Source of the DNA: an uncultured Actinomycetota bacterium
Lineage (GTDB): Bacteria; Actinomycetota; Actinomycetes; Propionibacteriales; Propionibacteriaceae
Assembly: GCA_963740925.1 (NCBI GenBank)
Contig: CAVUFZ010000003.1
Location: 337,605 to 401,604 of the forward strand
Direction: 5' to 3'
DNA: 64,000 bases
The notes below the pieces were generated by a model. That model was not told where the DNA came from. It did no database searches and saw only the letters and a list, made by a program, of their open reading frames with translations. A program made the position numbers and the translations under genes. This document shows positions 32,972-55,273 of the stretch, piece after piece (position 1 is the stretch's first letter; the number at the start of each line of letters is the position of its first letter).

Positions 32972-34477
32972 TTACTGGTTCTGCGGGAAGCCCAGGTTCA
33001 GCCCGCCGTGACTCGGATCGAGCCAGCGGCTGGTCACCACCTTGCCACGGGTGAAGAAGTGAACGCCTTCGGTGCCGTGGGCGTGGGTGTCGCCGAACAG
33101 GCTGTTCTTCCACCCACCGAAGGAGTAGTAGGCCATCGGCACCGGGACCGGGACGTTGATACCGATCATCCCGACCTTCACCTCGTTCTGGAACTGCCGG
33201 GCGGCACCGCCGTCGTTGGTGAAGATGGCGACGCCGTTGCCGTAGGGGTTGTCGTTGATCAGCTTCACCCCGTCCTCGTAGTTGTCTACCCGGACCACTG
33301 ACAGCACCGGGCCGAAGATCTCGTCGGTGTAGATGCTCATGTCGGTCGTGACGTGGTCGAACAGGGTCGGGCCCACGAAGAAGCCTTCACCGTCGGCGTC
33401 GAAGCCGCCCGCGGTGCTGCTGGCGCGACCGTCGACCACGAGGGTGGCGCCGGCCTCCTCGCCGGCGTCGATGTAGCCCGAAACCCGCTGCTGGGCCACC
33501 GAGGTGACCAGCGGGCCCATGTCGCAGCCGCGAGTGCCGTCACCGGTCCGCAGCGTGTGGGCACGTTCAGCGATCTTGGCCACCAACTCGTCGCCGATGT
33601 CCCCGACGGCCAGTACGGCCGAGATCGCCATACAGCGCTCGCCGGCCGAGCCGAAGCCGGCGTTGATGGCCTGGTCGGCGGCCAGATCGAGATCGGCGTC
33701 CGGCAGCACCAGCATGTGGTTCTTGGCTCCACCCAGCGCCTGGACCCGCTTGCCGTGGCTGGTGCCGGTCTCGTAGACGTAACGGGCGATCGGGGTCGAG
33801 CCGACGAAGCTGATGGAGTCGACCTCGGGGTGGGTCAACAGCGTGTCCACGGCCTCCTTGTCACCGTTGACGACGTTGAAGACACCGTCGGGCAAGCCGG
33901 CCTCCTTCCACAACTGCGCCATCCACAGCGCAGCGGTCGGCACCTTCTCACTCGGCTTGAGCACCACCGCGTTACCGGCGGCGATGGCGATCGGGAAGAA
34001 CCACATCGGCACCATGGCCGGGAAGTTGAACGGGCTGATGATCCCGACCACGCCGAGCGGCTGGCGAACCGAGTGGACGTCGACCTTGGTCGAGGCGTTC
34101 TCGGTGAAGCCGCCCTTGAGCAGGTGGGCGATCCCGCAGGCGAACTCGACCACCTCCTGGCCGCGGCTCACCTCACCGAGGGCGTCGGAGAGGACCTTGC
34201 CGTGTTCGGAGGTGATGATCTCGGCCAGCTCACCCTTCCGGGCGTTGAGCAACTCCCGGAAGGCGAACATGACCGTGGTGCGCTTGGCCAATGACGTGTC
34301 GCGCCACTTCGGGAAGGCCGCCCGGGCGGCCGCGATCACCTCGCCCACCTCGTCGGCCGAGGCGAGCGAGAGCTGGGCGCTGACCTCGCCGGTGGCCGGG
34401 TTGGTCACATCGGAGAACCGGCCCGAGGTGCTCTCGAAGTCGGCGCCGTTCTTCCAGTGGTGCAGGGTGGTGGCCAT
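32972..34477 (-). CDS. iolA: CoA-acylating (methyl)malonate-semialdehyde dehydrogenase
   Basis: PFNFPAMVPMW, KPSE, FVGSTP, LGGAKNH, AGFGSAGERCMA, EIFGPV and FGGWKNSLFGD. Confidence 0.95.
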   Translation of the reverse strand: MATTLHHWKNGADFESTSGRFSDVTNPATGEVSAQLSLASADEVGEVIAAARAAFPKWRDTSLAKRTTVMFAFRELLNARKGELAEIITSEHGKVLSDALGEVSRGQEVVEFACGIAHLLKGGFTENASTKVDVHSVRQPLGVVGIISPFNFPAMVPMWFFPIAIAAGNAVVLKPSEKVPTAALWMAQLWKEAGLPDGVFNVVNGDKEAVDTLLTHPEVDSISFVGSTPIARYVYETGTSHGKRVQALGGAKNHMLVLPDADLDLAADQAINAGFGSAGERCMAISAVLAVGDIGDELVAKIAERAHTLRTGDGTRGCDMGPLVTSVAQQRVSGYIDAGEEAGATLVVDGRASSTAGGFDADGEGFFVGPTLFDHVTTDMSIYTDEIFGPVLSVVRVDNYEDGVKLINDNPYGNGVAIFTNDGGAARQFQNEVKVGMIGINVPVPVPMAYYSFGGWKNSLFGDTHAHGTEGVHFFTRGKVVTSRWLDPSHGGLNLGFPQNQ

Positions 34478-34517: not shown

Positions 34518-35384
34518 TCAGCTGGTGAAGTGCTGGTCGATCAAGGCCTGGGCCTGTTCGCGCTGCCGGGTGTTCACGCCGTCGGCGTCCTCTTCGAAAC
34601 CGAACACGCAGCTCGAGATCACCCCGTCGAAGTCGACCGAGGCGAGGGCGGCGAAGATGTCGTCGTAAGGCACCTCGCCGCGGCCCATCTCCATGTGCTG
34701 ATGGACCCGGACGGGGTTGCCCGGCGGGTTGGTGATGTAGCGCAACCCGTGGCTGGCCGTGTGGTCGAAGGCGTCGGCCAGATGGACATAGCGGGTCTTC
34801 TCCCCCGCGGCCGCGATGATCTCGGCCGGGCTGTGACCCTGGTGGAAAGCGTGCGGGGTGCAGTAGAGGAAGCCGATCCAGTCCCGGTTCAGCCCGCGCA
34901 GCATCCCGACCGCGTCCAACCCGTCCTCGATGAAGTCGTCCGGATGCGGCTCGATGATCAACTGCAGGCCTTCGCGCTCGAAGACGGGCAGCAACTCGTC
35001 CATCGAGCGCAGGAACATCGCCTCGGCGTGCTCGGGTTCTTCCGGCCGGCCGTTGAACTCGGTGTTGATCACCTCGACCCCGAGATCGACCGCGATCTGG
35101 ATGATCCGCCGGAACGAGCGGACCGCCGCCTGGCGCTCGTCCTCACCCGGACCGGACCAGCGCTGCACGGGCAGCAACGAGGCGATCCCGACCCCGGCGT
35201 CCGCGGCGACCTTCTTCAACTGCGCCACGCCGGCGTCGTCGACCCTGGGGTGTCGGAAGAAGGGCACGAAGTCGCTCTTCGGCGACAACTCCATCCACTG
35301 ATAGCCCAACCGGGCCACGATGTCGGGCAACTCCCAGACCGAGTGGTCGGCGAAGTACATCTGCGGGTCGAGGGCCAGTTTCAT
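34518..35384 (-). CDS. iolH: sugar phosphate isomerase/epimerase, IolH-like
   Basis: MKLALDP.M, IEPHPDDF, HLADAFDH and RVHQH; located in the iol operon. Confidence 0.8.
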   Translation of the reverse strand: MKLALDPQMYFADHSVWELPDIVARLGYQWMELSPKSDFVPFFRHPRVDDAGVAQLKKVAADAGVGIASLLPVQRWSGPGEDERQAAVRSFRRIIQIAVDLGVEVINTEFNGRPEEPEHAEAMFLRSMDELLPVFEREGLQLIIEPHPDDFIEDGLDAVGMLRGLNRDWIGFLYCTPHAFHQGHSPAEIIAAAGEKTRYVHLADAFDHTASHGLRYITNPPGNPVRVHQHMEMGRGEVPYDDIFAALASVDFDGVISSCVFGFEEDADGVNTRQREQAQALIDQHFTS

Positions 35385-36391
35385 GGTCGGCTCCCCAGCT
35401 CGATGGCCACCTTGTCGCCGGTCCGGAACGCCTGCACCCCAGCCTCACAGGCCACGACCGCGGCGTAACCGTCCCAGACGCCCGGGCCATCGATGCCGCC
35501 GGCCCGGGCCGCGTCCACCCAGCGCTGCAGTTCGGTGTCGTAGGCAGCGCCGAAGCGTTCGACGAAGCCTGGGGAGATAGCGCCGGAGCGGCGTCCGTCC
35601 GGACCGGTCCGGATCAGCTGCTGGTCGAGCCCGATCATGGCCGAACCCTGCTCACCGACGACCTCGGTCCGCACCTCGTAGCCGACGCCGGTCCGGACGA
35701 AGACCTCATCGGTGACGATCCGGCCGGAGGCGGTCTCGAAGACGACCAACAACGGGTCGTTGGTGCCCGCGGGCGCGGCCGCGGTGGCGACACCACCGAT
35801 CACCCGGACGCTGCTCAGCTCCTCGCCCAGCAGGAACCGGGCCGCATCCACCTCGTGCACCACCGAGTCCCTGATCATGAATTCGGAGTTGAAATGATCG
35901 CCGACTGCTTCGTTGCGGTGCACGCAGTGCACCATCAGCGGGTTGCCCAGCCCACCCGAGGCGATCAGGTCGCGCAGAGCGACGTACTCGGCGTCGAAAC
36001 GACGCATGAACCCGACCTGCACCAGGGGTCGGCCCACCTTCGCCTCGGCCTGCACCAAGGCGTAGGAGCTCTCGGCGTCGGTGGTCAGCGGCTTCTCGCA
36101 CAACACCGGGATGCCGCGCTTCAGACACGCGCTCACCTGATCGAAGTGGGTGTTGCCCGGCGTGGCCAGCAGGACGGCGTCCACCTCGTCGTCGTTGATC
36201 GCCTCGATCGGGTCGGCCACCGCCCGGGCGCCGATCTTCGCGCCCAGCTCGGTGGCGAGATCGGCTACGTAGTCGTTGACCACACTGACGGTGACGCCCT
36301 TGATCCGGCTGGCCAGGGCCTCGACGTGGAAGGCGCCCATCATGCCGAGGCCGAGCACGGCCACCCGAAGATCGTCCTTGGTCTCGCTCAT
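35381..36391 (-). CDS. iolG: myo-inositol 2-dehydrogenase (Gfo/Idh/MocA)
   Basis: GLGMMG Rossmann motif, CEKP, QVGFMRRFD and SVVHEVD. Confidence 0.85.
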   Translation of the reverse strand: MSETKDDLRVAVLGLGMMGAFHVEALASRIKGVTVSVVNDYVADLATELGAKIGARAVADPIEAINDDEVDAVLLATPGNTHFDQVSACLKRGIPVLCEKPLTTDAESSYALVQAEAKVGRPLVQVGFMRRFDAEYVALRDLIASGGLGNPLMVHCVHRNEAVGDHFNSEFMIRDSVVHEVDAARFLLGEELSSVRVIGGVATAAAPAGTNDPLLVVFETASGRIVTDEVFVRTGVGYEVRTEVVGEQGSAMIGLDQQLIRTGPDGRRSGAISPGFVERFGAAYDTELQRWVDAARAGGIDGPGVWDGYAAVVACEAGVQAFRTGDKVAIELGSRP

Positions 36392-37314
36392 CGTCCGGCT
36401 CCGTCCACTCGGCCCATGTCGATCTTGACGTCGCTGCATCCGGACAGGTAGGTCTTGGTGCGCTTGGCGATCGGCAGCGGAACGTCCGGCGCGCACGGGT
36501 AGAGGTCGTGCTCGATGATCCCCTTGATCGGACGGCCGAGACCGGCCAGCGCCTCCAGCACCGGCGGCATCTCCGGCACCCCGCGCGGCGGCTCGGTCAT
36601 CGCCCCCATCCGGACGGCCTCCGGCCAGACCACGTTCTTCGCCCGCACTTCAGCCATCACGGCCGGGTCGACCTGCTTGAGGTGGACGTAGCCTATCCGG
36701 TCCGGGTACTTCGTGATCAGCTCGACGCAATCGCCGTCGTAGTAGGCGATGTGGCCGGTGTCCAGGCAGAGGTTGACCTTGGCCGGGTCGGTGCTCTCCA
36801 GGAACCGCTCGACGTCGCGCTGATAGCCGACGTGGCTCTCGGCGTGCGGGTGGAACTGGACGTTGAGGCCGTACTCGTCCAGGATCCTTCTGCCCAGCTC
36901 GTCGGTCTGGCTGGTCAGCAGCTGCCACTGCTCGGCGGTAAGTGTCGACGGCTCCAGATCGGCGCCGGTCTTCTCGTCCCGCCACATCGCCGGGATGACC
37001 ACGATGTGCTCGCCACCGACGGCTTTAGTCAGCGCGGCCACGTTGGTGACCTGTTGCCAGACGTGGTCCCACGACCCGGGCTGGTGCAGGCCGGAGAACA
37101 CGGTGCCGGCCAGCACCGACAGGTGGTGCTTCTCCAACGCCTCACTCAGGGCCGCCGGATCGGTCGGCAGGTAGCCGTACGGGCCGAGTTCGATCGCCTC
37201 GTAGCCGGCTTCGGCGACCTCGGCCAGAAATCGATCGGACGGCAGCTGCTCAGGGTCGCTGGGGAACCAGACGCCCCAGCTGTCCGGGGCGGTGCCGATG
37301 GTGAGGGTGGACAC
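36388..37314 (-). CDS. iolE: 2-keto-myo-inositol (inosose) dehydratase
   Basis: GTAPDSWGVWF, ELGPYGYLP, FHPHA, LCLDTGH, HLKQVD and EHDLYP. Confidence 0.85.
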   Translation of the reverse strand: MSTLTIGTAPDSWGVWFPSDPEQLPSDRFLAEVAEAGYEAIELGPYGYLPTDPAALSEALEKHHLSVLAGTVFSGLHQPGSWDHVWQQVTNVAALTKAVGGEHIVVIPAMWRDEKTGADLEPSTLTAEQWQLLTSQTDELGRRILDEYGLNVQFHPHAESHVGYQRDVERFLESTDPAKVNLCLDTGHIAYYDGDCVELITKYPDRIGYVHLKQVDPAVMAEVRAKNVVWPEAVRMGAMTEPPRGVPEMPPVLEALAGLGRPIKGIIEHDLYPCAPDVPLPIAKRTKTYLSGCSDVKIDMGRVDGAGR

Positions 37315-37380: not shown

Positions 37381-39279
37381 TCAGCTGGTCGGACGGAGAT
37401 AGCGGCGCTGGTCGGCTTTGTGTTCGTCATAGGTGATCCGGGCTGCCCGGGTGGACTCCAGGGTTGAGGTCTCACTCACCGGGACGTCCCACCACGACTC
37501 CGAACTCGGGGCATCGATCAACGGGTCGGTCTCCACGTAGATCACGCACGGATCGGTGCCGGCCTTGGCCTGCTTGATCGCGTCCGCCAGCTCGGACTTG
37601 GTGGCGGCCCGGATCACCTCCAGGCCGAAGCTGGCTGCGTTGGCGGCGAGGTCGATCGGCAGTTTGGCCCCATCGAGCCGACCGGATTCGCTGTCGCGGT
37701 AGCGATATCGGGTCCCGAAGCGCTGCGAGCCGAGGGACTCCGAGAGCGAACCGATCGAGGCGAAGCCGTGGTTCTGGACCAGCACCAGGATGACCTTCAG
37801 GCCCTCCTGGACCGCAGTGGCCAGCTCGGTCGCCATCATCAGGTACGAGCCGTCCCCGACCATGACGAAGACGTCTCGGTCCGGACAGGCCAGCCGGACC
37901 CCGAGGCCGCCGGCTACTTCGTAGCCCATACAGGAATAGCCGTACTCGACGTGGTAGCCCTTCGGATCGCGAACCCGCCACAGCTTGTGCAGATCACCGG
38001 GCATCGACCCGGCCGCACAGACCACCACGTCACGCGGATCGGACAGCTCGTTGACCGCGCCGATCACCGAGTTCTGGGTCAGTAGTCCGTCGGCCGGCTC
38101 TTCCTCGGCGTAGGCCTGCTCCACCGTGCTTTCCCAGGCAGCGTTCTGCTCGGCGACGCTGTTCGCGTACTCGGTGCTGACCTGATAGTCACCGAGGGCG
38201 GAGGCCAACGCCAGCAGCGATTCCCTGGCGTCGGCCTGCACTGCGTAGCCGGCCTGCTTGACCGCATCGATCGGCGCGACGTTGACGTTGACGAACCGCA
38301 CGTCAGGGTTGGCGAAGGCCGTCCGGCTGGCCGTGGTGAAGTCCTCGTAACGAGTACCGATCCCGATCACCACGTCGGTCTCGTGGGCGATGGTGTTGGC
38401 GGCCGTGGTGCCGGTGGAGCCGATCGCCCCCAGGCACTGCGGGTGGTCATAGACCAGCGTTCCCTTGCCGGCCTGCGTTTGTCCGACCGGGATGCCGGTC
38501 TGCTCGCACAGCGCAGCCAGAGCGTCGGTGGCGCCGGAGTAGTGCACGCCGCCGCCGGCCACGATCAGCGGCTTCTTTGCGCTGGCGATGATCTCTGCCG
38601 CGTGTTGCAGCCGTCCGGTCTCGGGCAGCGGACGGGCGATGTGCCAGACCCGCTTGGCGAACAGCTCGTTCGGCCAGTTGTGGGCCTGTGCCTGCACGTC
38701 CTGAGGGAAGCAGACGGTGACGGCGCCCGTCTCGGCCGGATCGGTCAGCACCCGCATCGCCGAGATCATCGCTGCCGGCAGCTGCTCGGGTCGCCATATC
38801 CGGTCGAAATACTTGCTGACCGGGCGGAAGACGTCGTTGACGGTGGTGTCACCGGACCAGGGCAGCTCGAGTTCCTGCAGCAGCGGCGATGCGGCACGGT
38901 CGGCGAACGTATCGGCGGGCAGCAGCAACACCGGCAGCCGGTTGATGGTGGCCAGCGCGGCGCCGGTGACCATGTTGGTCGCACCCGGGCCGACCGAGGA
39001 GGAGATCGCGTAGGTCTGCAGCCGGTTCTTCATCCGGGCGTAGGCGACCGCGCTGTGCACCATGGCCTGTTCGTTGCGGCCCAGGATGTAGGGCAGGCAG
39101 TCCGGCTCTTCGAGTTCGGCCTGCAGCAACGCCTGACCGATGCCGGCGACGTTGCCGTGGCCGAAGATGCCGAAGCACCCGGCGAACAACTTCTGCTCGA
39201 CCCCGTCGGACTCGCTGTACTGCGCGCCGAGGAACTTCACCAGTGCCTGGGCGACGGTCAGCCGCACCGTCTCGTTCAT
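37381..39279 (-). CDS. iolD: 3D-(3,5/4)-trihydroxycyclohexane-1,2-dione acylhydrolase
   Basis: RLTVAQALVKFL, GIFGHGNVAG, RNEQAMVH, EYGYSCMGYE and TPP motif GDGSYLM. Confidence 0.97.
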   Translation of the reverse strand: MNETVRLTVAQALVKFLGAQYSESDGVEQKLFAGCFGIFGHGNVAGIGQALLQAELEEPDCLPYILGRNEQAMVHSAVAYARMKNRLQTYAISSSVGPGATNMVTGAALATINRLPVLLLPADTFADRAASPLLQELELPWSGDTTVNDVFRPVSKYFDRIWRPEQLPAAMISAMRVLTDPAETGAVTVCFPQDVQAQAHNWPNELFAKRVWHIARPLPETGRLQHAAEIIASAKKPLIVAGGGVHYSGATDALAALCEQTGIPVGQTQAGKGTLVYDHPQCLGAIGSTGTTAANTIAHETDVVIGIGTRYEDFTTASRTAFANPDVRFVNVNVAPIDAVKQAGYAVQADARESLLALASALGDYQVSTEYANSVAEQNAAWESTVEQAYAEEEPADGLLTQNSVIGAVNELSDPRDVVVCAAGSMPGDLHKLWRVRDPKGYHVEYGYSCMGYEVAGGLGVRLACPDRDVFVMVGDGSYLMMATELATAVQEGLKVILVLVQNHGFASIGSLSESLGSQRFGTRYRYRDSESGRLDGAKLPIDLAANAASFGLEVIRAATKSELADAIKQAKAGTDPCVIYVETDPLIDAPSSESWWDVPVSETSTLESTRAARITYDEHKADQRRYLRPTS

Positions 39280-39290
39280 CTCTGCCTCTC

Positions 39291-40163
39291 TCACTTGCTC
39301 GTCAGCCGCGGGTCGATCTGCTGGTCGGCCCAGCCCGCCCGGATCCAGGCCTGGTCGGGGTGATCGGAGATCTTCCACACCCGCTCCCCCGGACCGGCCA
39401 TCACGTTCAGGTAGTACATGGTCTGGCCGGGCGCGGCGCTGGCCGGACCGTGCCAGCCGTAGGGCACCAGTACGGTGTCGCGATCGTGCACCTCCAGACA
39501 CAGATCGATGTCGTGGCCCGGTGAGGACGACGTGCGGAAGAAGCCGATCCCCGGCTCACCCTGCGGGCCGGACTCGATCTCGAAGTAATAGATCTCCTCC
39601 AGTTCGCTCTCGTGCTCACTCGCCTGGTCGTGCTTGTGCGCCGGGTAGGACGACCAGTTGCCGCCCGGGGTGATCACCTCACACGCGATGATCGAACCGG
39701 CCTCGAGCGCCTCGGGGGTGCCGAAGTTGCGGACCTGCCGGGAGCACTGCCCCGCTCCGCGCAATTCCACCGGGACCTCGGCGGCCGGGCCGTACCGCAG
39801 CGGCAGATCAGCCTCGGTGCGGGCACCGCAGAGGGCGAAGCGGCCACCGGAGACACTGCCGATCGCCATCGTCGAGTTCCGTGGTACGTAGGCGAAATCG
39901 GTCGGACCGGCGAACACCGACGGCCGTCCGGCCAGTTCGAGGTGGTCATCCCCGACAGCCACCAACGCCGACCCGCTCAGCGGCACCACGATGATCTCGT
40001 CCGGCCCGGTGTGCAGGGTCTCGGTCTGGTTGGCGTCCAGGGCGAGGACCTTCAGCGACGAATAGCCCCAGCCTGCCGACTCGGGACTGACGTCGACCTG
40101 GTAGCCGTCTCCGCCGGCCTCCCGGGCCGGTAGGTAGAGGTTCGCTCGATCAGAGCTGGGCAT
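39291..40163 (-). CDS. iolB: 5-deoxy-glucuronate isomerase
   Basis: EVITPGGNWSSYPAHKHD, LEEIYY and VPYGWHGP...YYLNVMAGP. Confidence 0.95.
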   Translation of the reverse strand: MPSSDRANLYLPAREAGGDGYQVDVSPESAGWGYSSLKVLALDANQTETLHTGPDEIIVVPLSGSALVAVGDDHLELAGRPSVFAGPTDFAYVPRNSTMAIGSVSGGRFALCGARTEADLPLRYGPAAEVPVELRGAGQCSRQVRNFGTPEALEAGSIIACEVITPGGNWSSYPAHKHDQASEHESELEEIYYFEIESGPQGEPGIGFFRTSSSPGHDIDLCLEVHDRDTVLVPYGWHGPASAAPGQTMYYLNVMAGPGERVWKISDHPDQAWIRAGWADQQIDPRLTSK

Positions 40164-40173
40164 GGTCGCCTCC

Positions 40174-41061
40174 TCAGCGAACCAGCGAGACGGCGGTGTC
40201 CACCGCTCCCGCCACGTTGTCGTCCGGTGGGTACAGCATGGTTCGCCCGACCACCAGCCCACGGACGGACGGCAGGGCCAGTGCGCGCTGCCATTTCGCG
40301 TACGTCTCATCCGGCGAACCCTCGGGATCCCCACCCAGCAACAGGGTCGGCAGTGTGGTGGCGGCCATCACCCGTTCCATCTCGGCCACCACCGGCAACT
40401 TCATCCAGGTAAAGGCGCTGGTGGTGCCCAGACCCTGGGCGATGTGCACCGACTTGATCACCGCATCGGAGCTCAGGTCGTTGACCACCTTGCCCTGTTC
40501 GTTGCGTGCCGACATGAACGGCTCGACCAACGCGATCAGCTCGGCCCGGTTCAGCTCGCTGATGACGCGGGCACAGGTCTCCATGGTGGCCACGGTGCCA
40601 GGATCGGAGAGGTCGATCCGCAACAGCATCTTGGCTCCGTCGAAGCCGGACTCGACGGTCCCGGTGACGTCGTACCCGGTCATCCGGTCGTCCAGCTCGA
40701 AGCTGGAGCCGGCCAGCCCGCCGCGGTTCATCGAGCTGAAGACGACCTTGTCCTCCAGCGCGCCGAGCAGCAGTAGGTCCTCGGCGATGTCGGCGGTGGC
40801 CAGTAGGCCGTCCACCCCCGGCCGAGCCAGCGCGGTGACCAGCCGGTCGAGCAGGTCGACACGGTCGTTCATCGCGTCCGGGCGTCCGGAAGCAGCCAAG
40901 GCGCCTCGAGCCGGGTGGTCGCAGGCGATGATCATCAATTTGCCGTCCGGCGGCACCACCTCGGCCCGACGGGCGCGTCCGGCCAGCAACTTCTTGATCC
41001 GGCGCGGATCGCGTAACCGGACCTCGTTGATATCGGCCACTGAGCCGACGAAGTCGGTCAT
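40174..41061 (-). CDS. Cgl0159-like (beta/alpha)8 protein, probable class I aldolase
   Basis: IIACDHPARG, MNRGGLAG, DGAKMLLRID, WMKLP and GLVVGR; sits between iolC and iolB. Confidence 0.75.
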   Translation of the reverse strand: MTDFVGSVADINEVRLRDPRRIKKLLAGRARRAEVVPPDGKLMIIACDHPARGALAASGRPDAMNDRVDLLDRLVTALARPGVDGLLATADIAEDLLLLGALEDKVVFSSMNRGGLAGSSFELDDRMTGYDVTGTVESGFDGAKMLLRIDLSDPGTVATMETCARVISELNRAELIALVEPFMSARNEQGKVVNDLSSDAVIKSVHIAQGLGTTSAFTWMKLPVVAEMERVMAATTLPTLLLGGDPEGSPDETYAKWQRALALPSVRGLVVGRTMLYPPDDNVAGAVDTAVSLVR

Positions 41062-42083
41062 CGCCGGCCCGCCGGCACGTGCACGGCCTGGTCGTCGGAG
41101 AGGCCGGCGTTCGGATCGCCACCGTCGAGCAGGGTGTCGATCTCGGCATCGGTGGGCATCGCCGTCGAGCACTCCAGCCGGGAGGCGACGATCGCCCCGG
41201 CGGCGTTGGCCCGCTGCAGGATGCGCTCCAGTGGCCAGCCCCGCAACAGACCGTGACACAGGGATCCGCCGAAGCTGTCCCCGGCCCCCAGACCGTTCAT
41301 CGGCTCGATCAGGATCGGCGCGGACTCGACCCGCTGTCCGTCGCGGGTCTTGGCCAGCACCCCCTTCGGCCCCTGCTTGACCACCGCCAGTTCGACCCCT
41401 GCGGCAAGCAGCGCGTCGGCGGCCCGCTCCGGCTCGGTCTCACCGACCGCGACCTCGCACTCCTCGCGGTTGCCGACGGCCACGGTGATGAAGGGCAACG
41501 CCTTCTGTACCTGCTCGGTGGCCGCTGCCGCGTCGGCCCAGAACATCGGGCGGTAGTCCAGATCGAGAACGGTGAACGGTTGACGGTCACGAGCCTGCAG
41601 CACCTCGAAGTGCGACTGCCGGCTCGGCTCCTCACTCAGACCCGAGACCGACAACCACATCAGCCTGGCGGCCCGAACGGCGTCGAAGTCGACGTCGGAG
41701 GGCGCGACCTGCAGATCCGGCGCAGTCGGCTTCCGGTAGAACCAGAGCGGGAAGTTGTCGGGCGGGAAGATCTCGCAGAACGTCACCGGCGTGGCGTACG
41801 TGGTGTTCGTGACCACGTGAGAGTCGTCCACGCCGAGATCGCGCAACTCGCGGCGGACGTAGCGACCGAACGGATCGTCGCCGACACCGGTGATGATGCC
41901 AGCCCGCTCCCCCAGCCGGGCCGCGGCCACGGCCACGTTGGCCGTGGTGCCACCGAGATATTTGCCGAACGAGGTGACGTCCTCCAGGCCGACACCGATC
42001 TGCAACGGGTAGATGTCCACCCCGGCCCGGCCGAACGTCAACACGTCCAGAGCCGTGGCTTCGGCCTGGTCAGCGTTGCTCAT
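41058..42083 (-). CDS. iolC: 5-dehydro-2-deoxygluconokinase (PfkB family)
   Basis: GRAGVDIYP, LGGTTANVAVAAARLG, LDLDYRP and NGLGAGDSFGG. Confidence 0.95.
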   Translation of the reverse strand: MSNADQAEATALDVLTFGRAGVDIYPLQIGVGLEDVTSFGKYLGGTTANVAVAAARLGERAGIITGVGDDPFGRYVRRELRDLGVDDSHVVTNTTYATPVTFCEIFPPDNFPLWFYRKPTAPDLQVAPSDVDFDAVRAARLMWLSVSGLSEEPSRQSHFEVLQARDRQPFTVLDLDYRPMFWADAAAATEQVQKALPFITVAVGNREECEVAVGETEPERAADALLAAGVELAVVKQGPKGVLAKTRDGQRVESAPILIEPMNGLGAGDSFGGSLCHGLLRGWPLERILQRANAAGAIVASRLECSTAMPTDAEIDTLLDGGDPNAGLSDDQAVHVPAGRR

Positions 42084-42165
42084 CGCTCTCCTTTGAATCG
42101 AGATCAGAATCGGGATCGAATAAAACGAGCTCGAAATGACGGATCTGAATCAGGCCCGTCGAACC

Positions 42166-42555
42166 TCACAGCTCACCGGTGAGGAACTGCGCGCGACCCA
42201 GGCCGAAGGACCAGTCATCCACTGTATTCGTACTGATCGAGACGACGAGATCCTGGGGTCGAAGTTCACACTGCGCTTCCAGCCGGAGGGCCAACTGCTC
42301 GTAGACCGCGACCTTCTGATCGCGTGACCGGCCCTGCTGAAAGATATGGATCACCGTGACCTCGCTGCTGCGGGTCAGGCCCAGGCCACTGTCGTCGGCG
42401 ATGATGTGGCCGACCGGATGCTCGGTGATGATCTGGTACCGGTCGTTCACCGGCGCCGCGAACACATCCACCATCACGTCTTGCACCACGTCCGCCAACC
42501 GTCGCAACTCGGCCGGTGACCGGCCCTGCTGAACATCGATCCGCACCAACGGCAC
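42166..42555 (-). CDS. tautomerase superfamily protein, malonate semialdehyde decarboxylase (MSAD)/IolK-like
   Basis: Pro-1 after Met removal; P.NDRYQ (Asp37), DSGLG..RS, QQGR (Gln73, Arg75) and DWSFG.GRAQFLTGEL. Confidence 0.82.
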   Translation of the reverse strand: MPLVRIDVQQGRSPAELRRLADVVQDVMVDVFAAPVNDRYQIITEHPVGHIIADDSGLGLTRSSEVTVIHIFQQGRSRDQKVAVYEQLALRLEAQCELRPQDLVVSISTNTVDDWSFGLGRAQFLTGEL

Positions 42556-42577
42556 AGCTGCCTCCCTCGACGACCCA

Positions 42578-42607
42578 ATTCTAGACTTTGTCAGGACATT
42601 AGATCAA
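42578..42607 (-). promoter_or_regulatory. iol operon promoter TTGATC-N18-TAGAAT with IolR-like box TGTCAGGACA in the spacer (42589-42598)
   Basis: Read directly upstream of the tautomerase start. Confidence 0.7.
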
Positions 42608-42679
42608 ACCAAGATCCTTCATGGTTCGGAGGCTGCGGCAGGCTCTCAGCGCTGGCGATCTGCCGCTCCGTCCGTTAGC

Positions 42680-43495
42680 TCAGCGCTGCAGCTCATGACT
42701 GAGCTCGGCGAGTTCGTCGCCGCCGGCCATCTGTCGGGTGAGTTCGTCCAGACCGACATCGGACCGCTTCTTGTCGAGCACCGCCTGGCCCAGCTTCAAG
42801 ATGATGAAGTGGTTGCCGACGAGATAGGCGTGGTGCGGGTTGTGGGTGATGAAGACCACGCCCAGGCCGGCGTCACGGGCCGCAGCGGTGTACTTCAGCA
42901 CCACCCCGGACTGCTTGACGCCGAGAGCAGCGGTGGGCTCGTCGAGGATCAACACCCTCGCTCCGAAATAGACCGCACGGGCGATGGCGACACATTGGCG
43001 CTGACCGCCGGACAGCTCGCCGATCGGCTGATCGATGTTCTTGACGACGATGCCCATCTTGCGCAGTTCTTCGTCCGCGATGCGCTTCATGTCCTTGGAC
43101 TTGAGTCCCGAGAGCGGGAACTTGCTGCCGGTCATTTCCGAGCCGAGGAAGAAGTTGCGCCACACCTCCATCAGTCCGACTACCGCCAGATCCTGGTACA
43201 CCGTGGCGATGCCGTGGGACAGCGCGTCCCGCGGGTTGCTGAAGGTCTGCGGCTTGCCGTCGATGAGCATCTCGCCCTCGTTGTGCGGATGCAAACCGGC
43301 CATGATCTTGATCAGGGTCGATTTGCCGGCCCCGTTGTCACCCAGGACGCAACTGACCTCACCCGCCTTGACGGTGAGATTGATGCCCTTCAGGGCTCGG
43401 ATGGCTCCGTAGCTCTTGCCCACGTTGCGCATCTGGATGAGCGACTCGCCATCGTGCAGTTCCGGGTCGGCGTGTTCGTGCAGCGTGTCAGTCAC
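42680..43495 (-). CDS. sugar (inositol) ABC transporter ATP-binding protein
   Basis: Walker A GDNGAGKST, LSGGQRQ and Walker B ILDEPT. Confidence 0.95.
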   Translation of the reverse strand: MTDTLHEHADPELHDGESLIQMRNVGKSYGAIRALKGINLTVKAGEVSCVLGDNGAGKSTLIKIMAGLHPHNEGEMLIDGKPQTFSNPRDALSHGIATVYQDLAVVGLMEVWRNFFLGSEMTGSKFPLSGLKSKDMKRIADEELRKMGIVVKNIDQPIGELSGGQRQCVAIARAVYFGARVLILDEPTAALGVKQSGVVLKYTAAARDAGLGVVFITHNPHHAYLVGNHFIILKLGQAVLDKKRSDVGLDELTRQMAGGDELAELSHELQR

Positions 43496-44563
43496 CTAAC
43501 CCACCTTTCTCGTCGTCGACAGTTTCTTCACGTAGAGGTTGACCAGCACGGCGAGCAGGAGCATGACGCCGAGGAAGGCCTTGAACCAGTTCGGGTCCCA
43601 GCCCGCGTAGACGATGCCGAGGTTGGTCATGCCGAAGATGAACGCCCCGATGGCGACACCCCAGGCGTTGCCGAACCCGCCCGTCATCAGCGTTCCGCCG
43701 ACCACAGCCGCGATGATGTAGAGGAATTCGTTCCCGACGCCGTTCCCGGCCTGCAGGGTGTTGAAGTTGTACAGGCTGTGCATGCCGATGAACCAGCCGA
43801 GGAACGACGTGGCCATGAAGAGCCCGATCTTCACCCGCCGGACGGGCACGCCCACGGCGCGGGCGCTGGCGGCATTGCCGCCGACGGCGTAGATCCAGTT
43901 GCCCATCCTGGTTCGCTGCAGGATGTAGCCGGACAACCCGACGAACACCAGCCACCAGATCACGGTCCCCCACACGGTGACGGGACCGACGTGGAAGCTG
44001 GAGGCGAAGATCGCGTGCAGGATGTTGTAACCGTCCATCTGGTTGATGTTGACGGTCGACACCGAGCCCGTGACCAACTTGGTCACACCGAGATTGGCTC
44101 CCTGCAGGACGAAGAAGGTGCCCAGGGTGATCAGGAAGCTCGGGATCCCTGTTCGCATCACGAGGTATCCGTTGACGAAACCGATGGCCAGGGCGAAGAC
44201 CAGGGAGAGAACGGCACCGACGATGAGGTTGATTCCCAGCTGGTAGCAGAACATCGCGTTCAGCAGACCGGCCGAGACGGGGACGACGCCGGCGGAGAGG
44301 TCGAATTCACCGCCGATCATCAGCATGCCGACCCCGACGGCCACGATGCCGATGGTCGAGGACTGATAGAGAACCGTGAAGAAGGAAGCGGGCGAACGGA
44401 AGGCCGGCGCGACGATCAGGAAGAAGATGAAGATCGCGATGGCCGCGACCAGTGCCCCGACCTCGGGGCGAGCAAGCAAACGGTTCGACAGACCAAGTGA
44501 CACCCGGTTCGATGATTCCGCCGGTGCCCCGGTGGGCGGTCGTGTCTGTACGGAATGACTCAT
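43496..44563 (-). CDS. sugar (inositol) ABC transporter permease (CUT2)
   Basis: GEFDLS, RTGIPSFLITLG, GNWIYAVGGN and AVVGGTLMTGG. Confidence 0.93.
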   Translation of the reverse strand: MSHSVQTRPPTGAPAESSNRVSLGLSNRLLARPEVGALVAAIAIFIFFLIVAPAFRSPASFFTVLYQSSTIGIVAVGVGMLMIGGEFDLSAGVVPVSAGLLNAMFCYQLGINLIVGAVLSLVFALAIGFVNGYLVMRTGIPSFLITLGTFFVLQGANLGVTKLVTGSVSTVNINQMDGYNILHAIFASSFHVGPVTVWGTVIWWLVFVGLSGYILQRTRMGNWIYAVGGNAASARAVGVPVRRVKIGLFMATSFLGWFIGMHSLYNFNTLQAGNGVGNEFLYIIAAVVGGTLMTGGFGNAWGVAIGAFIFGMTNLGIVYAGWDPNWFKAFLGVMLLLAVLVNLYVKKLSTTRKVG

Positions 44564-44635
44564 GAGTTGGCTCCGATTGACGAGGGTCGCACGGGCGGCC
44601 GGGACGCGATGGCCCCGGCCACCCGTTGCGGTGAC

Positions 44636-45631
44636 CTAGCGGGTGTTGTTCTTGGCGAACGGGAGGATGGTGTCGATGTTGGTGCTGTCGACGATGGACG
44701 GGCCGGTGAGCACGGGCTGACCGCCCCCGATGTCGTTGCCGTTCTTCTTGTACAGGTACAGCGAAGTGACGGCCATGAAACCCTGCACGTAAGGCTGCTG
44801 ATCGACCGAGAACTGGATCTGTCCGTCCTTGATCGCCTGCGCGGCGTCGACGTTCAGATCGAAGGTTGCCAGCTTGGCGCTGCTGCTCGACTGGCTGATG
44901 GCCTTGATCGCGTCGAGCGCGATCGGTGCCCCCAGCGTGACGATGTAGTCGATGGACTTGTCCTGGCTGAGCTTGGCCTGCAAGCTCGAGACCACCGAGG
45001 AGTCATCCGCCCCGTTGACCTGCAGGTTCTCGGTGTTCGAGAGGCCCTGCTTGACGCCGGCGCAGCGTGCTTCGAGCGCCACCGAACCGGAGGCCTGGAT
45101 GATGCACAGGCCGTGCTTGGCGCCTTCCGACGCCGCGCGCTTGCCGACGGTCTGCCCGGCGAGGGTCTCATCGGAGCCGAAGTACATCAGGGCTCCGACC
45201 GATTTGTACTCATCGATCCCGGAGTTGAACGCGACGACCGGGATGTTCGCCGACTTCGCGTTCTGGACCGCACCCTTGAGCGCGTCCGGCGTGGCCAGGG
45301 TGGTGGCGATGCCGTCGACCTTCGAGTCGACCGCGTTCTGGATCAGCGTGGACTGCTTGCTCGGGTCGGGGTCGTTGGAGTACTTCAGCGTGACGCCCTC
45401 GTTCTTGGCGGCCTGCTGGGCACCCGCCTTGATCTTGTCCCAGAAGGTGTCGCCGGGGGTCTCGTGGGTGACCATGGCAAAGGTGTAGCCGGAGCTGTCG
45501 CCGGCTCCCCCACTACCGCTGTTGTCGCTGGTGGAAGGAGCGGCGCCGCCGCCGCTGCACGCGGTGAGAGAAATGGCGGTTGCTGTGGCCAGGGCCAAGC
45601 CGGCCAGAAGCCGGGGACGTGGACGAATCAT
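44636..45631 (-). CDS. sugar (inositol) ABC transporter substrate-binding lipoprotein
   Basis: Lipobox SLTAC, VTHETPGDTFW and DQQPYVQG; RBS GAAAGG before ATG 45631. Confidence 0.92.
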   Translation of the reverse strand: MIRPRPRLLAGLALATATAISLTACSGGGAAPSTSDNSGSGGAGDSSGYTFAMVTHETPGDTFWDKIKAGAQQAAKNEGVTLKYSNDPDPSKQSTLIQNAVDSKVDGIATTLATPDALKGAVQNAKSANIPVVAFNSGIDEYKSVGALMYFGSDETLAGQTVGKRAASEGAKHGLCIIQASGSVALEARCAGVKQGLSNTENLQVNGADDSSVVSSLQAKLSQDKSIDYIVTLGAPIALDAIKAISQSSSSAKLATFDLNVDAAQAIKDGQIQFSVDQQPYVQGFMAVTSLYLYKKNGNDIGGGQPVLTGPSIVDSTNIDTILPFAKNNTR

Positions 45632-45879
45632 CGATGATCCTTTCGTGAGGTCGCAGGACCGCGACCGCGGGACAGGGGTGAATCCGCGAGAATGTGACCT
45701 CGCGGCCGCCACGAGCGGCCGGGGTCACGGGATCGCATGTCGGGGCCACCGAGCCGGTTGCCTTCGAGCGAACCGGCGGTCACCGACTGGCGCAGCACCG
45801 GAATCGCGATCCCGGTCAATGTCCCTGCACTCATCGATGAGCCCTCCACGTTGTCGTCGGCCGCGGTGCCGACGGGCTA

Positions 45880-45923
45880 ACTGTGATGGTGAGTTCACGC
45901 CGTGTCAAGTGTTTGTCTTAACA
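45880..45923 (-). promoter_or_regulatory. ABC operon promoter TTGACA-N17-CACAGT with IolR-like box TGTCTTAACA (45914-45923)
   Basis: -35 at 45903-45908; box lies 5 nt upstream of it, the same geometry as at 29326-29346. Confidence 0.65.
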
Positions 45924-46018
45924 TCTTGACCAATTCGTGTCTTGTCGGGGCGAACGGGTCACGCAACAATCGGACTCGGCCCGTCGGCGGCAGCAGTGAG
46001 CGAGCGTGAAGGAGCGAC

Positions 46019-47056: not shown

Positions 47057-47071
47057 TCGCCAGCCCCCGTT

Positions 47072-47812
47072 TCAGGCGACCAGAGAGGCCTGGATGTGGT
47101 AGTCGGTGGCCCGGTAGATGTGCCGACCGGCCTCGACCACCCGGCCGGTGTCGTCATAGACCACCCGAGAGGCGGTCAGGCACGCGGCCGGGAGGGTCTC
47201 GGCCAGCAGTTCGGCTTCCGCCGGATCGAGCAGCCGGGCACCGACCTGCTGATGGGCGATGCGCAGATTGACCCCGAGTCTGCGCAGACATTCATAGAGC
47301 CCCCCCTGCTGCAACTCCTCGGCAGGAACCGCCCAACGGCTCGGCAGGTAGTTGGTCAGAATGGCCAATGGGTGCCCGTCGGCCGAGCGCAGTCGCCTGA
47401 TCCGGAGGACGCGTTCGTCCTCCGAGGCCAGCTCCTGGGGGGCGTTGCCGAGATCGACCCAGTGGTAGGCGAGCAGTTGCGTGCCCGGAGTCCGGCCGGC
47501 AGTGACCAGGTCGTCCTGCAGGCTGGTCAACCGCTCTTCGCGGCTGAAGCTCCGCGGCACCACCTGGGTACCGACACCCCGTTTGCGCACCAGCAGACCT
47601 TTACGGACCAGCTCCTGGATCGCCTGCCGCGCGGTCGGCCGTGACAGACCCAGCCGAGCGGTCAGCGACATTTCGTTCTCCAGCCGCTCTCCGGGCGCGA
47701 GCGTGCCGTCGGCAATCGCGCTCTCGATGGACTGCGCCAGTTGGTGGTAGAGCGGCACCGGCGAGCTGCGCTCGAGGGCGATCTCGAGCTGCCGGGCATC
47801 CGATCGCGACAT
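47072..47812 (-). CDS. iolR: GntR (HutC subfamily, UTRA domain) regulator, IolR-like
   Basis: SPVPLYHQL, LGLSRPTARQAI and LLVRKRGVGT followed by a UTRA domain; embedded in the iol cluster. Confidence 0.8.
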   Translation of the reverse strand: MSRSDARQLEIALERSSPVPLYHQLAQSIESAIADGTLAPGERLENEMSLTARLGLSRPTARQAIQELVRKGLLVRKRGVGTQVVPRSFSREERLTSLQDDLVTAGRTPGTQLLAYHWVDLGNAPQELASEDERVLRIRRLRSADGHPLAILTNYLPSRWAVPAEELQQGGLYECLRRLGVNLRIAHQQVGARLLDPAEAELLAETLPAACLTASRVVYDDTGRVVEAGRHIYRATDYHIQASLVA

Positions 47813-47838
47813 AGCCACAGTATGGCGCCGATGCTGCT

Positions 47839-47848
47839 TGTTCGTACA
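47839..47848. promoter_or_regulatory. IolR-like box TGTTCGTACA between gntR and usp
   Basis: TGT-N4-ACA box in an AT-rich divergent intergenic region. Confidence 0.5.
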
Positions 47849-47894
47849 TAATGACAAGACTTGTTTGTCCAACCGTCTTGATCGGAGTTCGCAG

Positions 47895-48308
47895 ATGACC
47901 GTCGCGGTAGCCCATCAGGCAGCCTCCAACGCCCGGACGATCGCGCTGCAGGAAGCAGCCCGCGAGGCGGGGGCCCGAGCCACCGATCTGGTCGTTCTGC
48001 ACGTCGTCGAAGCTCTCGATCTGGACATCGAGGCCGCCTACCGCAGCGGACTCTCCGACGAGATCGAGCAGGCACTGGCCAGCCAGGACGTCTCCTCGGT
48101 GCCGTGGACGCTGAAGCTGGCGGCCTCCACCAAGGACGATGACGTCGCTGAGCAGATCCTGCGACTGGCCGACGAAGCGAAGGCCGAGGTTCTCGTCATC
48201 GGGGCCCGACGACGATCGCCCCTCGGCAAGTTCCTGATGGGCTCAGCCACCCAGACGCTCATCCTGGAGGCCAAGATGCCCGTCGTCGTGGTCAAGGCGC
48301 CGGCCTGA
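47895..48308 (+). CDS. universal stress protein
   Basis: LVIGARRRSPLGKFLMGSATQTLILEAKMPVVVVK. Confidence 0.88.
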   Translation: MTVAVAHQAASNARTIALQEAAREAGARATDLVVLHVVEALDLDIEAAYRSGLSDEIEQALASQDVSSVPWTLKLAASTKDDDVAEQILRLADEAKAEVLVIGARRRSPLGKFLMGSATQTLILEAKMPVVVVKAPA

Positions 48309-48332
48309 GTCAGCCGAGCCCGACCGCCGATC

Positions 48333-55263: not shown

Positions 55264-55273
55264 TGTCAGGACA
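55264..55273. promoter_or_regulatory. IolR-like box TGTCAGGACA upstream of the dehydrogenase at 55181
   Basis: Identical 10-mer to the box at 42589-42598. Confidence 0.6.

What the first reader, a model, noticed from the sequence alone, without database searches (positions are those of the whole stretch)
42166..42555. MSAD/IolK-like decarboxylase leads the iol operon, giving a second fate for malonate semialdehyde
Seen: first gene after the operon promoter, with Pro1, Asp37, Gln73 and Arg75. Knowledge: from memory it aligns without gaps to Pseudomonas MSAD (Pro1/Asp37/Arg73/Arg75); Gln73 occurs in the FG41 enzyme, and L. casei IolK is an iol-linked homologue. Inference: malonate semialdehyde can go to acetaldehyde + CO2 in parallel with IolA. 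I do not know of this branch in the C. glutamicum-type actinobacterial cluster.
Basis: partly seen in the sequence, partly recalled or inferred. Interest (0 to 1): 0.58.

Follow-up and report, generated by a model that had tools for sequence, protein, structure and literature searches.

The report
MSAD-type decarboxylase heading inositol operon
A small, intact enzyme gene of the malonate semialdehyde decarboxylase family is the first gene of this actinobacterium's inositol-breakdown operon; this optional add-on recurs in many bacteria and has a precedent in Lactobacillus casei, so it is real and tidy but only mildly new.

Summary
Window 42166-42555 (minus strand) encodes a 129-aa protein with Pro1, Asp37, Gln72, Gln73, Arg75 and the Trp114/Phe116/Phe123/Leu128 wall. 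It aligns without gaps to Pseudomonas pavonaceae MSAD (E 7e-33) and nearly so to FG41 MSAD (E 1e-28). The next non-MSAD tautomerase scores E 2e-3.

A conserved promoter with an embedded TGTCCTGACA operator sits directly upstream. iolC, a Cgl0159-type aldolase, iolB, D, E, G, an iolH-like gene and iolA follow on the same strand.

In the same genus, 12 of 24 other genomes have the same promoter-MSAD-iolC layout. MSAD-less relatives have a related promoter/operator directly before iolC, so the gene is an optional front cassette.

Across 80 named loci, the actinobacterial "QQGR" clade is iol-linked in 32 of 56 rows, in at least six different gene arrangements. A Bacillales clade is linked in 5 of 13, and PpMSAD-like clades in 0 of 28.

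Best reading (about 0.7): it decarboxylates the malonate semialdehyde made by the aldolase to acetaldehyde and CO2, alongside IolA. No assay exists for this clade.

The idea matches IolK of L. casei, and this scan noted the same thing in another genome. Verdict: new member of a known kind, modest interest.

The parts
42166..42555 (-). MSAD-family (IolK-like) gene. 129 aa, GTG start. Carries Pro1, Asp37, Gln72-Gln73-Gly74-Arg75, Trp114, Phe116, Phe123 and Leu128.
   Evidence: PDB phmmer E 6.6e-33 to 2AAG. AF2 model pLDDT 93.4, TM 0.89-0.90 to 2AAG and 3MJZ. Matches 52 of the 54 positions that are at least 90% conserved in its clade.
42578..42607 (-). Promoter-like site TTGATC-N18-TAGAAT of the MSAD-iolC operon.
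   Evidence: the only hit in 6.5 kb (0.7 expected by chance). The equivalent TTGACA...-10 module is conserved in 10 of 11 relatives.
42585..42601 (-). Putative IolR operator TAATGTCCTGACAAAGT in the promoter spacer. Core TGTCCTGACA at 42589-42598 is a TGTC-NN-GACA palindrome.
   Evidence: The 17-mer is unique in the window (0 expected by chance). A recognisable core sits upstream of all 11 orthologues read (degenerate in G018), and the same core or a related inverted variant sits before iolC in MSAD-less relatives. The match to C. glutamicum IolR consensus KGWCHTRACA is recalled from memory and was not verified here.
42560..42565 (-). Shine-Dalgarno GGGAGG, five bases before the GTG.
   Evidence: read from the sequence.
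41058..42083 (-). iolC (5-dehydro-2-deoxygluconokinase), 82 nt downstream of the MSAD-like gene.
   Evidence: TIGR04382, 388 bits, above the 300-bit cut-off. PfkB.
40174..41058 (-). Cgl0159-type aldolase, the iolJ analogue that releases malonate semialdehyde plus DHAP. The start is approximate.
   Evidence: PF22649 Cgl0159-like, E 8e-124.
39291..40334 (-). iolB (5-deoxy-glucuronate isomerase). ORF coordinates; the true start is probably near 40170.
   Evidence: TIGR04378, 268 bits, above cut-off.
37381..39501 (-). iolD. ORF coordinates; the true start is probably near 39290.
   Evidence: TIGR04377, 925 bits, above cut-off.
36388..37314 (-). iolE-like dehydratase (xylose-isomerase-like TIM barrel).
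   Evidence: TIGR04379 at 143 bits, which is below the 290-bit cut-off.
35381..36496 (-). iolG-like inositol dehydrogenase (ORF coordinates).
34518..35384 (-). iolH-like sugar-phosphate isomerase/epimerase fold protein.
   Evidence: AP_endonuc_2, E 1e-45.
32972..34477 (-). iolA (CoA-acylating methylmalonate/malonate-semialdehyde dehydrogenase), the known consumer of malonate semialdehyde.
   Evidence: TIGR01722, 684 bits, above cut-off.
47072..47872 (-). GntR/UTRA (HutC-type) regulator, the candidate IolR.
42680..45712 (-). Sugar ABC transporter upstream on the same strand: binding protein, permease and ATPase.
   Evidence: An operator-like TGTCTTAACA lies at 45914-45923 in its promoter region.

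Best explanation
The gene encodes a functional malonate semialdehyde decarboxylase of the tautomerase superfamily, an IolK-like accessory enzyme.

It is transcribed as the first gene of the inositol-inducible iolC-aldolase-iolB-D-E-G-H-A operon, from a promoter whose spacer carries the probable IolR operator.

When inositol is catabolised, the Cgl0159-type aldolase splits 2-deoxy-5-keto-gluconate-6-phosphate into DHAP and malonate semialdehyde. IolA turns most of that aldehyde into acetyl-CoA, CO2 and NADH.

The MSAD-like enzyme, using Pro1 as general acid with Asp37 and Arg75 (Gln72/Gln73 in place of Arg73), decarboxylates part of it to acetaldehyde and CO2 without needing CoA or NAD+. The likely benefit is protection against build-up of a reactive aldehyde, and/or a CoA- and redox-sparing overflow.

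Shown: family membership, intact catalytic residues, operon position, conserved promoter/operator, recurrent iol linkage and purifying selection.
Inferred: the substrate, the product and the physiological benefit.
For: - **Family.** The alignment to PpMSAD is gapless (E 6.6e-33), FG41 MSAD scores E 1.4e-28, and the next superfamily hit scores E 1.6e-3. The AF2 model (pLDDT 93.4) matches 2AAG and 3MJZ best, at TM 0.89-0.90.
- **Residues.** Pro1, Asp37, Arg75, Trp114 and Phe116 are near-invariant across 69 diverse representatives, while position 73 varies among R, Q, S, A, K and E. The window copy keeps 52 of the 54 clade-conserved positions; the two changes are conservative.
- **Tree.** The window lies in an actinobacterial QQGR clade. 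That clade is sister to the clade (SH-aLRT 98) holding the PpMSAD proxy P0152, and the FG41 proxy P0130 branches outside both. The window is therefore bracketed by the two assayed enzymes.
- **Context.** The gene sits directly upstream of iolC in 12 of 24 other genomes of the genus. In the named-genome scan, 32 of 56 QQGR-clade rows have iol genes in the locus. The layouts include upstream of iolC, divergent from iolC, after iolB, after iolD, after iolG and convergent with iolA. An FG41-type homologue also heads an iol operon in another family (G049).
- **Second context.** In Rhodococcus opacus the homologue follows a DAO-type oxidoreductase and an MMSDH that is 76% identical to the window's IolA, under a PucR-type regulator. 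By inference, malonate semialdehyde would be the shared metabolite between this context and the iol operon.
- **Regulation.** The promoter/operator is conserved upstream of 10 of 11 orthologues, and a related promoter/operator sits before iolC where the gene is missing.
- **Selection.** Median pairwise dN/dS is 0.21 over 66 pairs, with dS near saturation.
Against: - No member of the QQGR clade has been assayed.
- The active-site combination Gln72/Gln73/Arg75/Phe123 matches neither PpMSAD (Ser72/Arg73/Arg75/Phe123) nor FG41 MSAD (Thr72/Gln73/Arg76/Tyr123).
- Homologues at 57-73% identity also occur away from iol genes, for example beside a two-component system in a Nocardioidaceae MAG and in G026.
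- The gene is dispensable. Near-complete genomes of the same genus have iolC but no MSAD homologue (G008, G024, G021).
- IolA is present in every complete iol-linked cluster seen, so no pathway need is demonstrated.
- No dedicated acetaldehyde-consuming gene is evident in the operon.
- Public annotations call it only 'tautomerase family protein' or 'PptA'.
Confidence: 0.7

Rival explanations
1. It is an MSAD-fold tautomerase or hydratase acting on a different iol intermediate or another small keto or enol acid, not on malonate semialdehyde. One example would be ketonisation of the enol product of the IolE dehydratase.
For: Arg73 of PpMSAD is replaced by Gln, and position 72 is also Gln. Position 73 is the most variable active-site position in the family. 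Databases name the protein only as a tautomerase or PptA. Davidson et al. caution that most proteins in each subgroup may not catalyse the founder reaction (PMC5818174).
Against: Pro1, Asp37, Arg75 and the whole hydrophobic wall are retained. Gln73 is compatible with decarboxylase function in FG41 MSAD (PMC10606566). The window is bracketed by both assayed MSADs on the tree. The gene also sits next to an MMSDH outside any iol cluster, where no other iol intermediate exists.
Confidence: 0.15
2. It is a general-purpose malonate semialdehyde or aldehyde detoxifier that merely landed behind the iol promoter in this genus. Its main source of substrate would be beta-alanine, uracil or 3-hydroxypropionate metabolism rather than inositol.
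For: The gene is patchy within the genus and rare in the phylum: 9 of 400 other genomes have a hit at E <= 1e-15. It has non-iol contexts. Its G+C is lower (about 0.57-0.63) than that of the iol genes (0.66-0.72), which fits a cassette.
Against: Linkage to iol genes recurs in many different arrangements and in two phyla, which mere chance insertion does not explain. The gene sits between the conserved iol promoter/operator and iolC, so it is expressed exactly when the pathway makes malonate semialdehyde.
Confidence: 0.1
3. It is a decaying or functionless passenger ORF.
For: The window copy has a rather long terminal branch (0.31 against a median of 0.12) and uses GTG where most relatives use ATG.
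Against: Median dN/dS is 0.21. The copy keeps 52 of 54 clade-conserved residues and all catalytic ones. It has a good Shine-Dalgarno sequence and promoter. The fold model is confident.
Confidence: 0.03

Closest known systems
Malonate semialdehyde decarboxylase of Pseudomonas pavonaceae 170 (PpMSAD; PDB 2AAG/2AAJ/2AAL)
   Same: Same length and a gapless alignment at 42% identity, with model TM 0.89. Shares Pro1, Asp37, Arg75, Trp114, Phe116, Phe123 and Leu128.
   Different: Has Gln72/Gln73/Gly74 where PpMSAD has Ser72/Arg73/Pro74. PpMSAD serves 1,3-dichloropropene/3-chloroacrylate catabolism. None of the 28 PpMSAD-like clade rows surveyed lay near iol genes.
FG41 MSAD of coryneform bacterium strain FG41 (PDB 3MJZ/3MLC/4LHO/4LHP)
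   Same: Actinobacterial. Shares Gln73, Pro1, Asp37, Trp114, Phe116 and Leu128. 43-44% identity, TM 0.90.
   Different: FG41 has Thr72, a one-residue insertion that places the arginine at 76, and Tyr123 (PMC10606566). The window has Gln72, Arg75 and Phe123. FG41-type proteins branch outside the window's clade, yet one (G049) also heads an iol operon.
IolK of the Lactobacillus casei BL23 iol operon (Yebra et al. 2007, Appl Environ Microbiol 73:3850)
   Same: An MSAD-family gene inside an iol operon that also contains iolA. The logic is the same: a second fate for malonate semialdehyde. Cited in PMC2530867 and PMC10606566.
   Different: IolK is from a Firmicute, with a class II IolJ-type operon and a different gene position. 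Its sequence could not be retrieved here (papers not held), so sequence relatedness was not tested. I know of no published assay of IolK.
YodA-type MSAD homologues of Bacillus/Paenibacillus (Ser72-Lys73-x-Arg75 clade)
   Same: Same fold and core residues. 5 of 13 surveyed rows are iol-linked: Paenibacillus dauci, P. kribbensis, Paenibacillus sp. P8, P. azoreducens and Metabacillus sp..
   Different: Lys73 instead of Gln73. This clade groups with the PpMSAD side of the tree.

Membership tests
MSAD subgroup of the tautomerase superfamily | N-terminal proline (Pro1) directly after the initiator | tested here: met
   GTG-CCG at 42555-42550. All 11 orthologues read start M/V-PLVRI. Pro1 is present in 69 of 69 representatives.
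MSAD subgroup of the tautomerase superfamily | Asp37 | tested here: met
   Asp37 is present. It is conserved in 65 of 69 representatives.
MSAD subgroup of the tautomerase superfamily | Arginine pair Arg73/Arg75 that binds the carboxylate (PpMSAD definition) | tested here: inconclusive
   Arg75 is present, but position 73 is Gln. FG41 MSAD, an accepted member, also has Gln73 (PMC10606566). The pair is therefore not strictly defining, and Arg75 is the near-invariant one (65 of 69).
MSAD subgroup of the tautomerase superfamily | Hydrophobic wall Trp114, Phe116, Phe123, Leu128 | tested here: met
   All four residues are present.
MSAD subgroup of the tautomerase superfamily | About 129 residues with two fused beta-alpha-beta units, and closest in sequence and fold to MSADs rather than to 4-OT, CHMI, MIF or cis-CaaD | tested here: met
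   E 6.6e-33 and 1.4e-28 for MSADs against 1.6e-3 or weaker for other tautomerases; strand-helix-strand, strand-helix-strand; the top six Foldseek hits are MSADs.
MSAD subgroup of the tautomerase superfamily | Homotrimer | not tested
   No complex prediction was run. It would pass through likeness to the solved trimers and would add little.
MSAD subgroup of the tautomerase superfamily | Catalyses malonate semialdehyde to acetaldehyde plus CO2 | not testable with these tools
   This needs an enzyme assay.
IolK-type (iol-operon-encoded MSAD homologue) | Encoded within, and co-oriented with, an iol catabolic operon that also encodes IolA | tested here: met
   The same holds in 12 other genomes of the genus and in many named genomes.
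IolK-type (iol-operon-encoded MSAD homologue) | Under the iol repressor's control | tested here: inconclusive
   A conserved operator-like palindrome lies in the promoter spacer. Binding by the GntR/UTRA regulator was not shown. The C. glutamicum IolR consensus is recalled from memory only.
IolK-type (iol-operon-encoded MSAD homologue) | Sequence orthology to L. casei IolK | not testable with these tools
   The IolK sequence was not retrievable: it was not among the 120 best hits, and the papers are not held.

The most novel reading that the evidence does not exclude
The Gln72-Gln73-Gly74-Arg75 proteins may be a distinct, unassayed actinobacterial MSAD lineage whose native job is inositol (and beta-alanine-type) catabolism. 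This would suggest that the MSAD family's natural role is handling metabolic malonate semialdehyde, with the xenobiotic 3-chloroacrylate pathways being recent recruits. As an IolR-controlled front cassette, the enzyme would act as a CoA- and NAD-independent overflow. It would send malonate semialdehyde to acetaldehyde (and on to ethanol or acetate), letting cells grow on inositol when CoA or NAD+ is limiting, for example at low oxygen.
Probability: 0.3. Interest if true: 0.5.

Novelty: new member of a known kind. Interest (0 to 1): 0.33.

Why it matters
The textbook inositol pathway (B. subtilis, C. glutamicum) ends with IolA as the only fate of malonate semialdehyde.

A conserved, repressor-controlled MSAD gene at the head of many actinobacterial iol operons implies an accessory decarboxylative exit to acetaldehyde. 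That would change the carbon, CoA and redox balance of inositol catabolism. It is relevant to pathway models and to engineering of inositol- or 3-hydroxypropionate-related routes.

It would also give the MSAD family, studied almost only in pesticide degradation, a plausible everyday physiological role. And it points to an unassayed active-site variant (Gln72/Gln73/Arg75/Phe123) lying between the two solved enzymes.

The idea itself is not new: IolK was described in 2007. The value here is breadth and a clean test case rather than surprise.

Tried and rejected
- **IolK comparison.** I could not obtain the L. casei IolK sequence. The Yebra 2007 paper and the Poelarends 2008, Guo 2013, Huddleston 2014 and Lancaster 2022 manuscripts are not held. 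A homologue search seeded with the Sporolactobacillus protein returned only Bacillaceae YodA-like proteins in its top 120. The requested alignment to IolK was therefore not done.
- **IolR consensus.** KGWCHTRACA for C. glutamicum IolR (Klaffl 2013) could not be verified. It is used only as a recalled lead. In the window it gives 4 hits against 1.35 expected, which is weak on its own. The conserved 17-mer is the stronger evidence.
- **Terminator between the MSAD gene and iolC.** The scan found no terminator in the 82-nt MSAD-iolC gap. A stem-loop over the stop codon followed by GUUUUAUU folds no better than shuffled sequence (z 0.77). I reject it as evidence of a terminator.
- **NCBIfam.** No model scores above its cut-off for this protein, so there is no curated name.
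- **Literature.** Searches for any paper linking MSAD or a tautomerase with inositol genes in actinobacteria found none. The Mycobacterium MSAD survey (PMC10606566) does not analyse gene context.
- **Unpublished genome.** G358 gave a 58% hit on a 3.7-kb contig. No claim in this report rests on it.

Full report
**1. What is there**

The minus-strand ORF 42166-42555 begins at the first start codon of its frame (GTG) and encodes 129 residues. Counting from the proline that follows the initiator, the protein has Pro1, Asp37, Gln72, Gln73, Gly74, Arg75, Trp114, Phe116, Phe123 and Leu128.

Pfam assigns Tautomerase_2 (E 1e-26) and Tautomerase. No NCBIfam model reaches its cut-off. Public copies of close homologues are named only "tautomerase family protein" or "PptA", from Friedmanniella, Propionibacteriaceae and Nocardioidaceae.

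**2. Family**

Against all PDB chains, the best matches are:
- P. pavonaceae MSAD (2AAG): E 6.6e-33, residues 2-129 aligned without a gap.
- FG41 MSAD (3MJZ): E 1.4e-28, with one single-residue gap beside position 73.
- The next tautomerase-superfamily protein: only E 1.6e-3.

An AlphaFold2 model (pLDDT 93.4) has two beta-alpha-beta units. It is closest to 2AAG (TM 0.89, 42% identity) and to 3MJZ/3MLC (TM 0.89-0.90, 43-44% identity).

Among 69 diverse full-length representatives of the family, Pro1 (69), Asp37 (65), Arg75 (65), Trp114 (63) and Phe116 (55) are near-invariant. Position 73 varies freely: R 22, Q 11, S 8, A 7, K 7, E 5. Gln73 therefore does not disqualify the protein. FG41 MSAD, an accepted decarboxylase, has it too (PMC10606566).

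The window's combination is a third configuration: Gln72/Gln73/Arg75/Phe123. PpMSAD has Ser72/Arg73/Arg75/Phe123, and FG41 has Thr72/Gln73/Arg76/Tyr123.

**3. Tree**

I built a quick IQ-TREE of 104 rows: orthologues from relatives, 80 named loci, proxies for the two assayed enzymes, and four distant MSAD-like proteins as outgroup.
- The window falls in an actinobacterial clade of 56 rows in which 52 carry QQGR at 72-75 and four carry HQGR, EQGR or ETGR (SH-aLRT 87).
- Its sister (SH-aLRT 98) holds the PpMSAD proxy P0152, slow-growing Mycobacterium, Bacillales (Ser-Lys-x-Arg) and proteobacterial or acidobacterial Ser/Thr-Arg-Pro-Arg proteins.
- The FG41 proxy P0130 branches outside both.
- The proxies are sound: P0152 hits 2AAG at E 2e-48, and P0130 hits 3MJZ at E 2e-65.

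With that rooting, the window protein is bracketed by the two enzymes with demonstrated decarboxylase activity. Caveats: only 129 columns, a quick search, and a root that is not inferred.

**4. Operon and control**

Downstream on the same strand lie:
- iolC (TIGR04382, 388 bits)
- a Cgl0159-type aldolase (PF22649, E 8e-124)
- iolB, iolD, and iolE-, iolG- and iolH-like genes
- iolA (TIGR01722 MMSDH, 684 bits)
- an MFS sugar transporter

A GntR/UTRA regulator (47072-47872) and a sugar ABC transporter lie upstream.

The only sigma-70-like site in 41900-48400 is TTGATC-N18-TAGAAT at 42607-42578 on the minus strand. GGGAGG follows, five bases before the GTG. The spacer holds the palindrome TGTCCTGACA.

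In 10 of 11 orthologous loci of the same genus, the module TTGACA-ttATGTCCTGACAAAGT-(-10) is conserved immediately upstream of the MSAD-like gene; G018 keeps only a diverged operator. In genus members that lack the gene, the same operator-like palindrome lies directly in front of iolC. Two of the six examined (G011, G020) keep it in the same TTGAC-N-ATGTCYTNACAAA layout, and four carry an inverted or diverged variant next to a TTGAC. The gene therefore behaves as an optional cassette inserted between the iol promoter/operator and iolC.

The 10-mer fits the C. glutamicum IolR consensus as I remember it, but I could not verify that consensus here. An identical 10-mer lies at 55264-55273 and a variant at 45914-45923, both before other inositol-related genes.

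No terminator separates the ABC genes from the MSAD-like gene, or the MSAD-like gene from iolC.

**5. Distribution**

- The window's genome has one copy.
- In 24 other genomes of the genus, 12 have the gene immediately upstream of iolC on the same strand. Seven others have a bona fide iolC but no MSAD homologue, three of them near-complete (G008, G024, G021).
- In an even draw of 400 other Actinomycetota genomes, only 9 have a hit at E <= 1e-15. The gene is rare overall and enriched in this genus.
- In a scan of named genomes (80 loci, 10 kb each side), I searched the window's Iol proteins against the loci:
  - QQGR clade: 32 of 56 rows are iol-linked. Three of the unlinked rows are cut by contig ends.
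  - Bacillales clade: 5 of 13.
  - PpMSAD-like, mycobacterial and proteobacterial/acidobacterial clades: 0 of 28.

The linkage occurs in many layouts:

| Layout | Examples |
|---|---|
| Ahead of iolC | Propionibacteriaceae, Brachybacterium, Pengzhenrongella, G049 |
| Divergent from iolC | Geodermatophilus saharensis, Blastococcus |
| After iolB | Kocuria cellulosilytica |
| After iolD | L030 |
| After iolG | a Mycobacteriales MAG |
| Convergent with iolA | Amycolatopsis |
| Divergent from iolA | Paenibacillus |

Such reshuffled but persistent neighbourhood is the classic signature of functional coupling. IolA is present in every complete linked cluster, so the enzyme accompanies IolA rather than replacing it.

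**6. Other contexts**

- A 73%-identical homologue in a Nocardioidaceae MAG sits beside a two-component system.
- In G026 the gene is far from iolC.
- In Rhodococcus opacus it is the last gene of amino-acid permease / PucR regulator / DAO-type oxidoreductase / MMSDH (76% identical to the window's IolA) / MSAD-like. If the DAO-type oxidoreductase makes malonate semialdehyde, which I infer but have not shown, that aldehyde would be the metabolite this operon shares with the iol operon. This is the best indirect evidence for the substrate.

**7. Integrity**

Pairwise dN/dS among 12 gapless orthologues has a median of 0.21 (66 pairs, dS near saturation). The window copy matches 52 of the 54 positions that are at least 90% conserved in its clade, with two conservative exceptions, T55S and V106I.

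**8. Mechanism proposed**

Established pathway knowledge (B. subtilis and C. glutamicum iol pathway): the aldolase step yields DHAP plus malonate semialdehyde, and IolA converts the latter to acetyl-CoA, CO2 and NADH.

Inference: the MSAD-like enzyme decarboxylates part of the malonate semialdehyde to acetaldehyde without cofactors. This would act as a safety valve for a reactive aldehyde and/or as a CoA- and redox-sparing branch.

I put this at about 0.7. The rivals are:
- a different substrate on the same fold: 0.15
- a general malonate semialdehyde scavenger only loosely tied to inositol: 0.10
- a dead passenger gene: 0.03

**9. Comparison and novelty**

The concept of an MSAD homologue in an iol operon was published for L. 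casei BL23 as IolK. It is cited in PMC2530867 and listed among studied MSADs in PMC10606566.

I found no open paper describing it for actinobacteria or noting the QQGR clade. The 2023 Mycobacterium MSAD survey ignores gene context.

This scan had already noted the same kind of gene on other DNA (e1-5267021), with the same reading. I therefore class it as a new member of a known kind. The useful additions are the breadth of the linkage, the cassette-like position behind a conserved operator, the R. opacus MMSDH-MSAD operon, and an unassayed active-site variant.

**10. Limits**

- There is no biochemical or expression evidence.
- The IolR consensus is from memory.
- The tree is short and was built with a quick search.
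- One hit (G358) lies in an unpublished genome and is not used for any claim.

Noticed in passing
L059:3261-10393 (Rhodococcus opacus DSM 43205, NZ_CP134707.1): Apparent operon: amino-acid permease, divergent PucR-type regulator, DAO-type FAD oxidoreductase, an MMSDH 76% identical to the window's IolA, then an MSAD-like gene (QQGR type). It looks like a beta-alanine-type route that makes and disposes of malonate semialdehyde.
   Followed up: partly
L017 (G049:C15:289200-309100), MSAD-like gene at 9970-10356 on the minus strand: An FG41-type MSAD (Thr72-Gln73-Gly-Gly-Arg, Tyr123) lies directly upstream of iolC-...-iolD-iolA-iolE-iolG-iolH-MFS in a different actinobacterial family. FG41-type enzymes, known from chloroacrylate degradation, may therefore also serve inositol catabolism.
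   Followed up: partly
window 55264-55273 (-) and 45914-45923 (+): The operator core TGTCCTGACA recurs identically at 55264. A variant, TGTCTTAACA, lies in the divergent ABC-transporter/GFO-oxidoreductase intergenic region.
   Followed up: partly
window 42000-43500: G+C is lower over the MSAD-like gene and the ABC ATPase (about 0.57-0.64) than over iolC-iolB (0.66-0.72). This fits a later-acquired cassette.
   Followed up: no
window 42120-42175 (-): A stem-loop spans the MSAD stop codon and is followed by GUUUUAUU. It is not more stable than shuffled sequence (z 0.77), so it is probably not a terminator, but it could modulate read-through into iolC.
   Followed up: partly
G129:C19:139987-140370 (L019): A distant MSAD-like hit (39% identity) carries one in-frame TAG. 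It may be a pseudogene or a sequencing error.
   Followed up: no
L013:10001-12421 (Nocardioidaceae MAG): A 73%-identical QQGR-type homologue lies directly upstream of a response regulator/histidine kinase pair and downstream of a 1577-aa CHB_HEX_C/Fn3 protein, with no iol genes within 10 kb.
   Followed up: no
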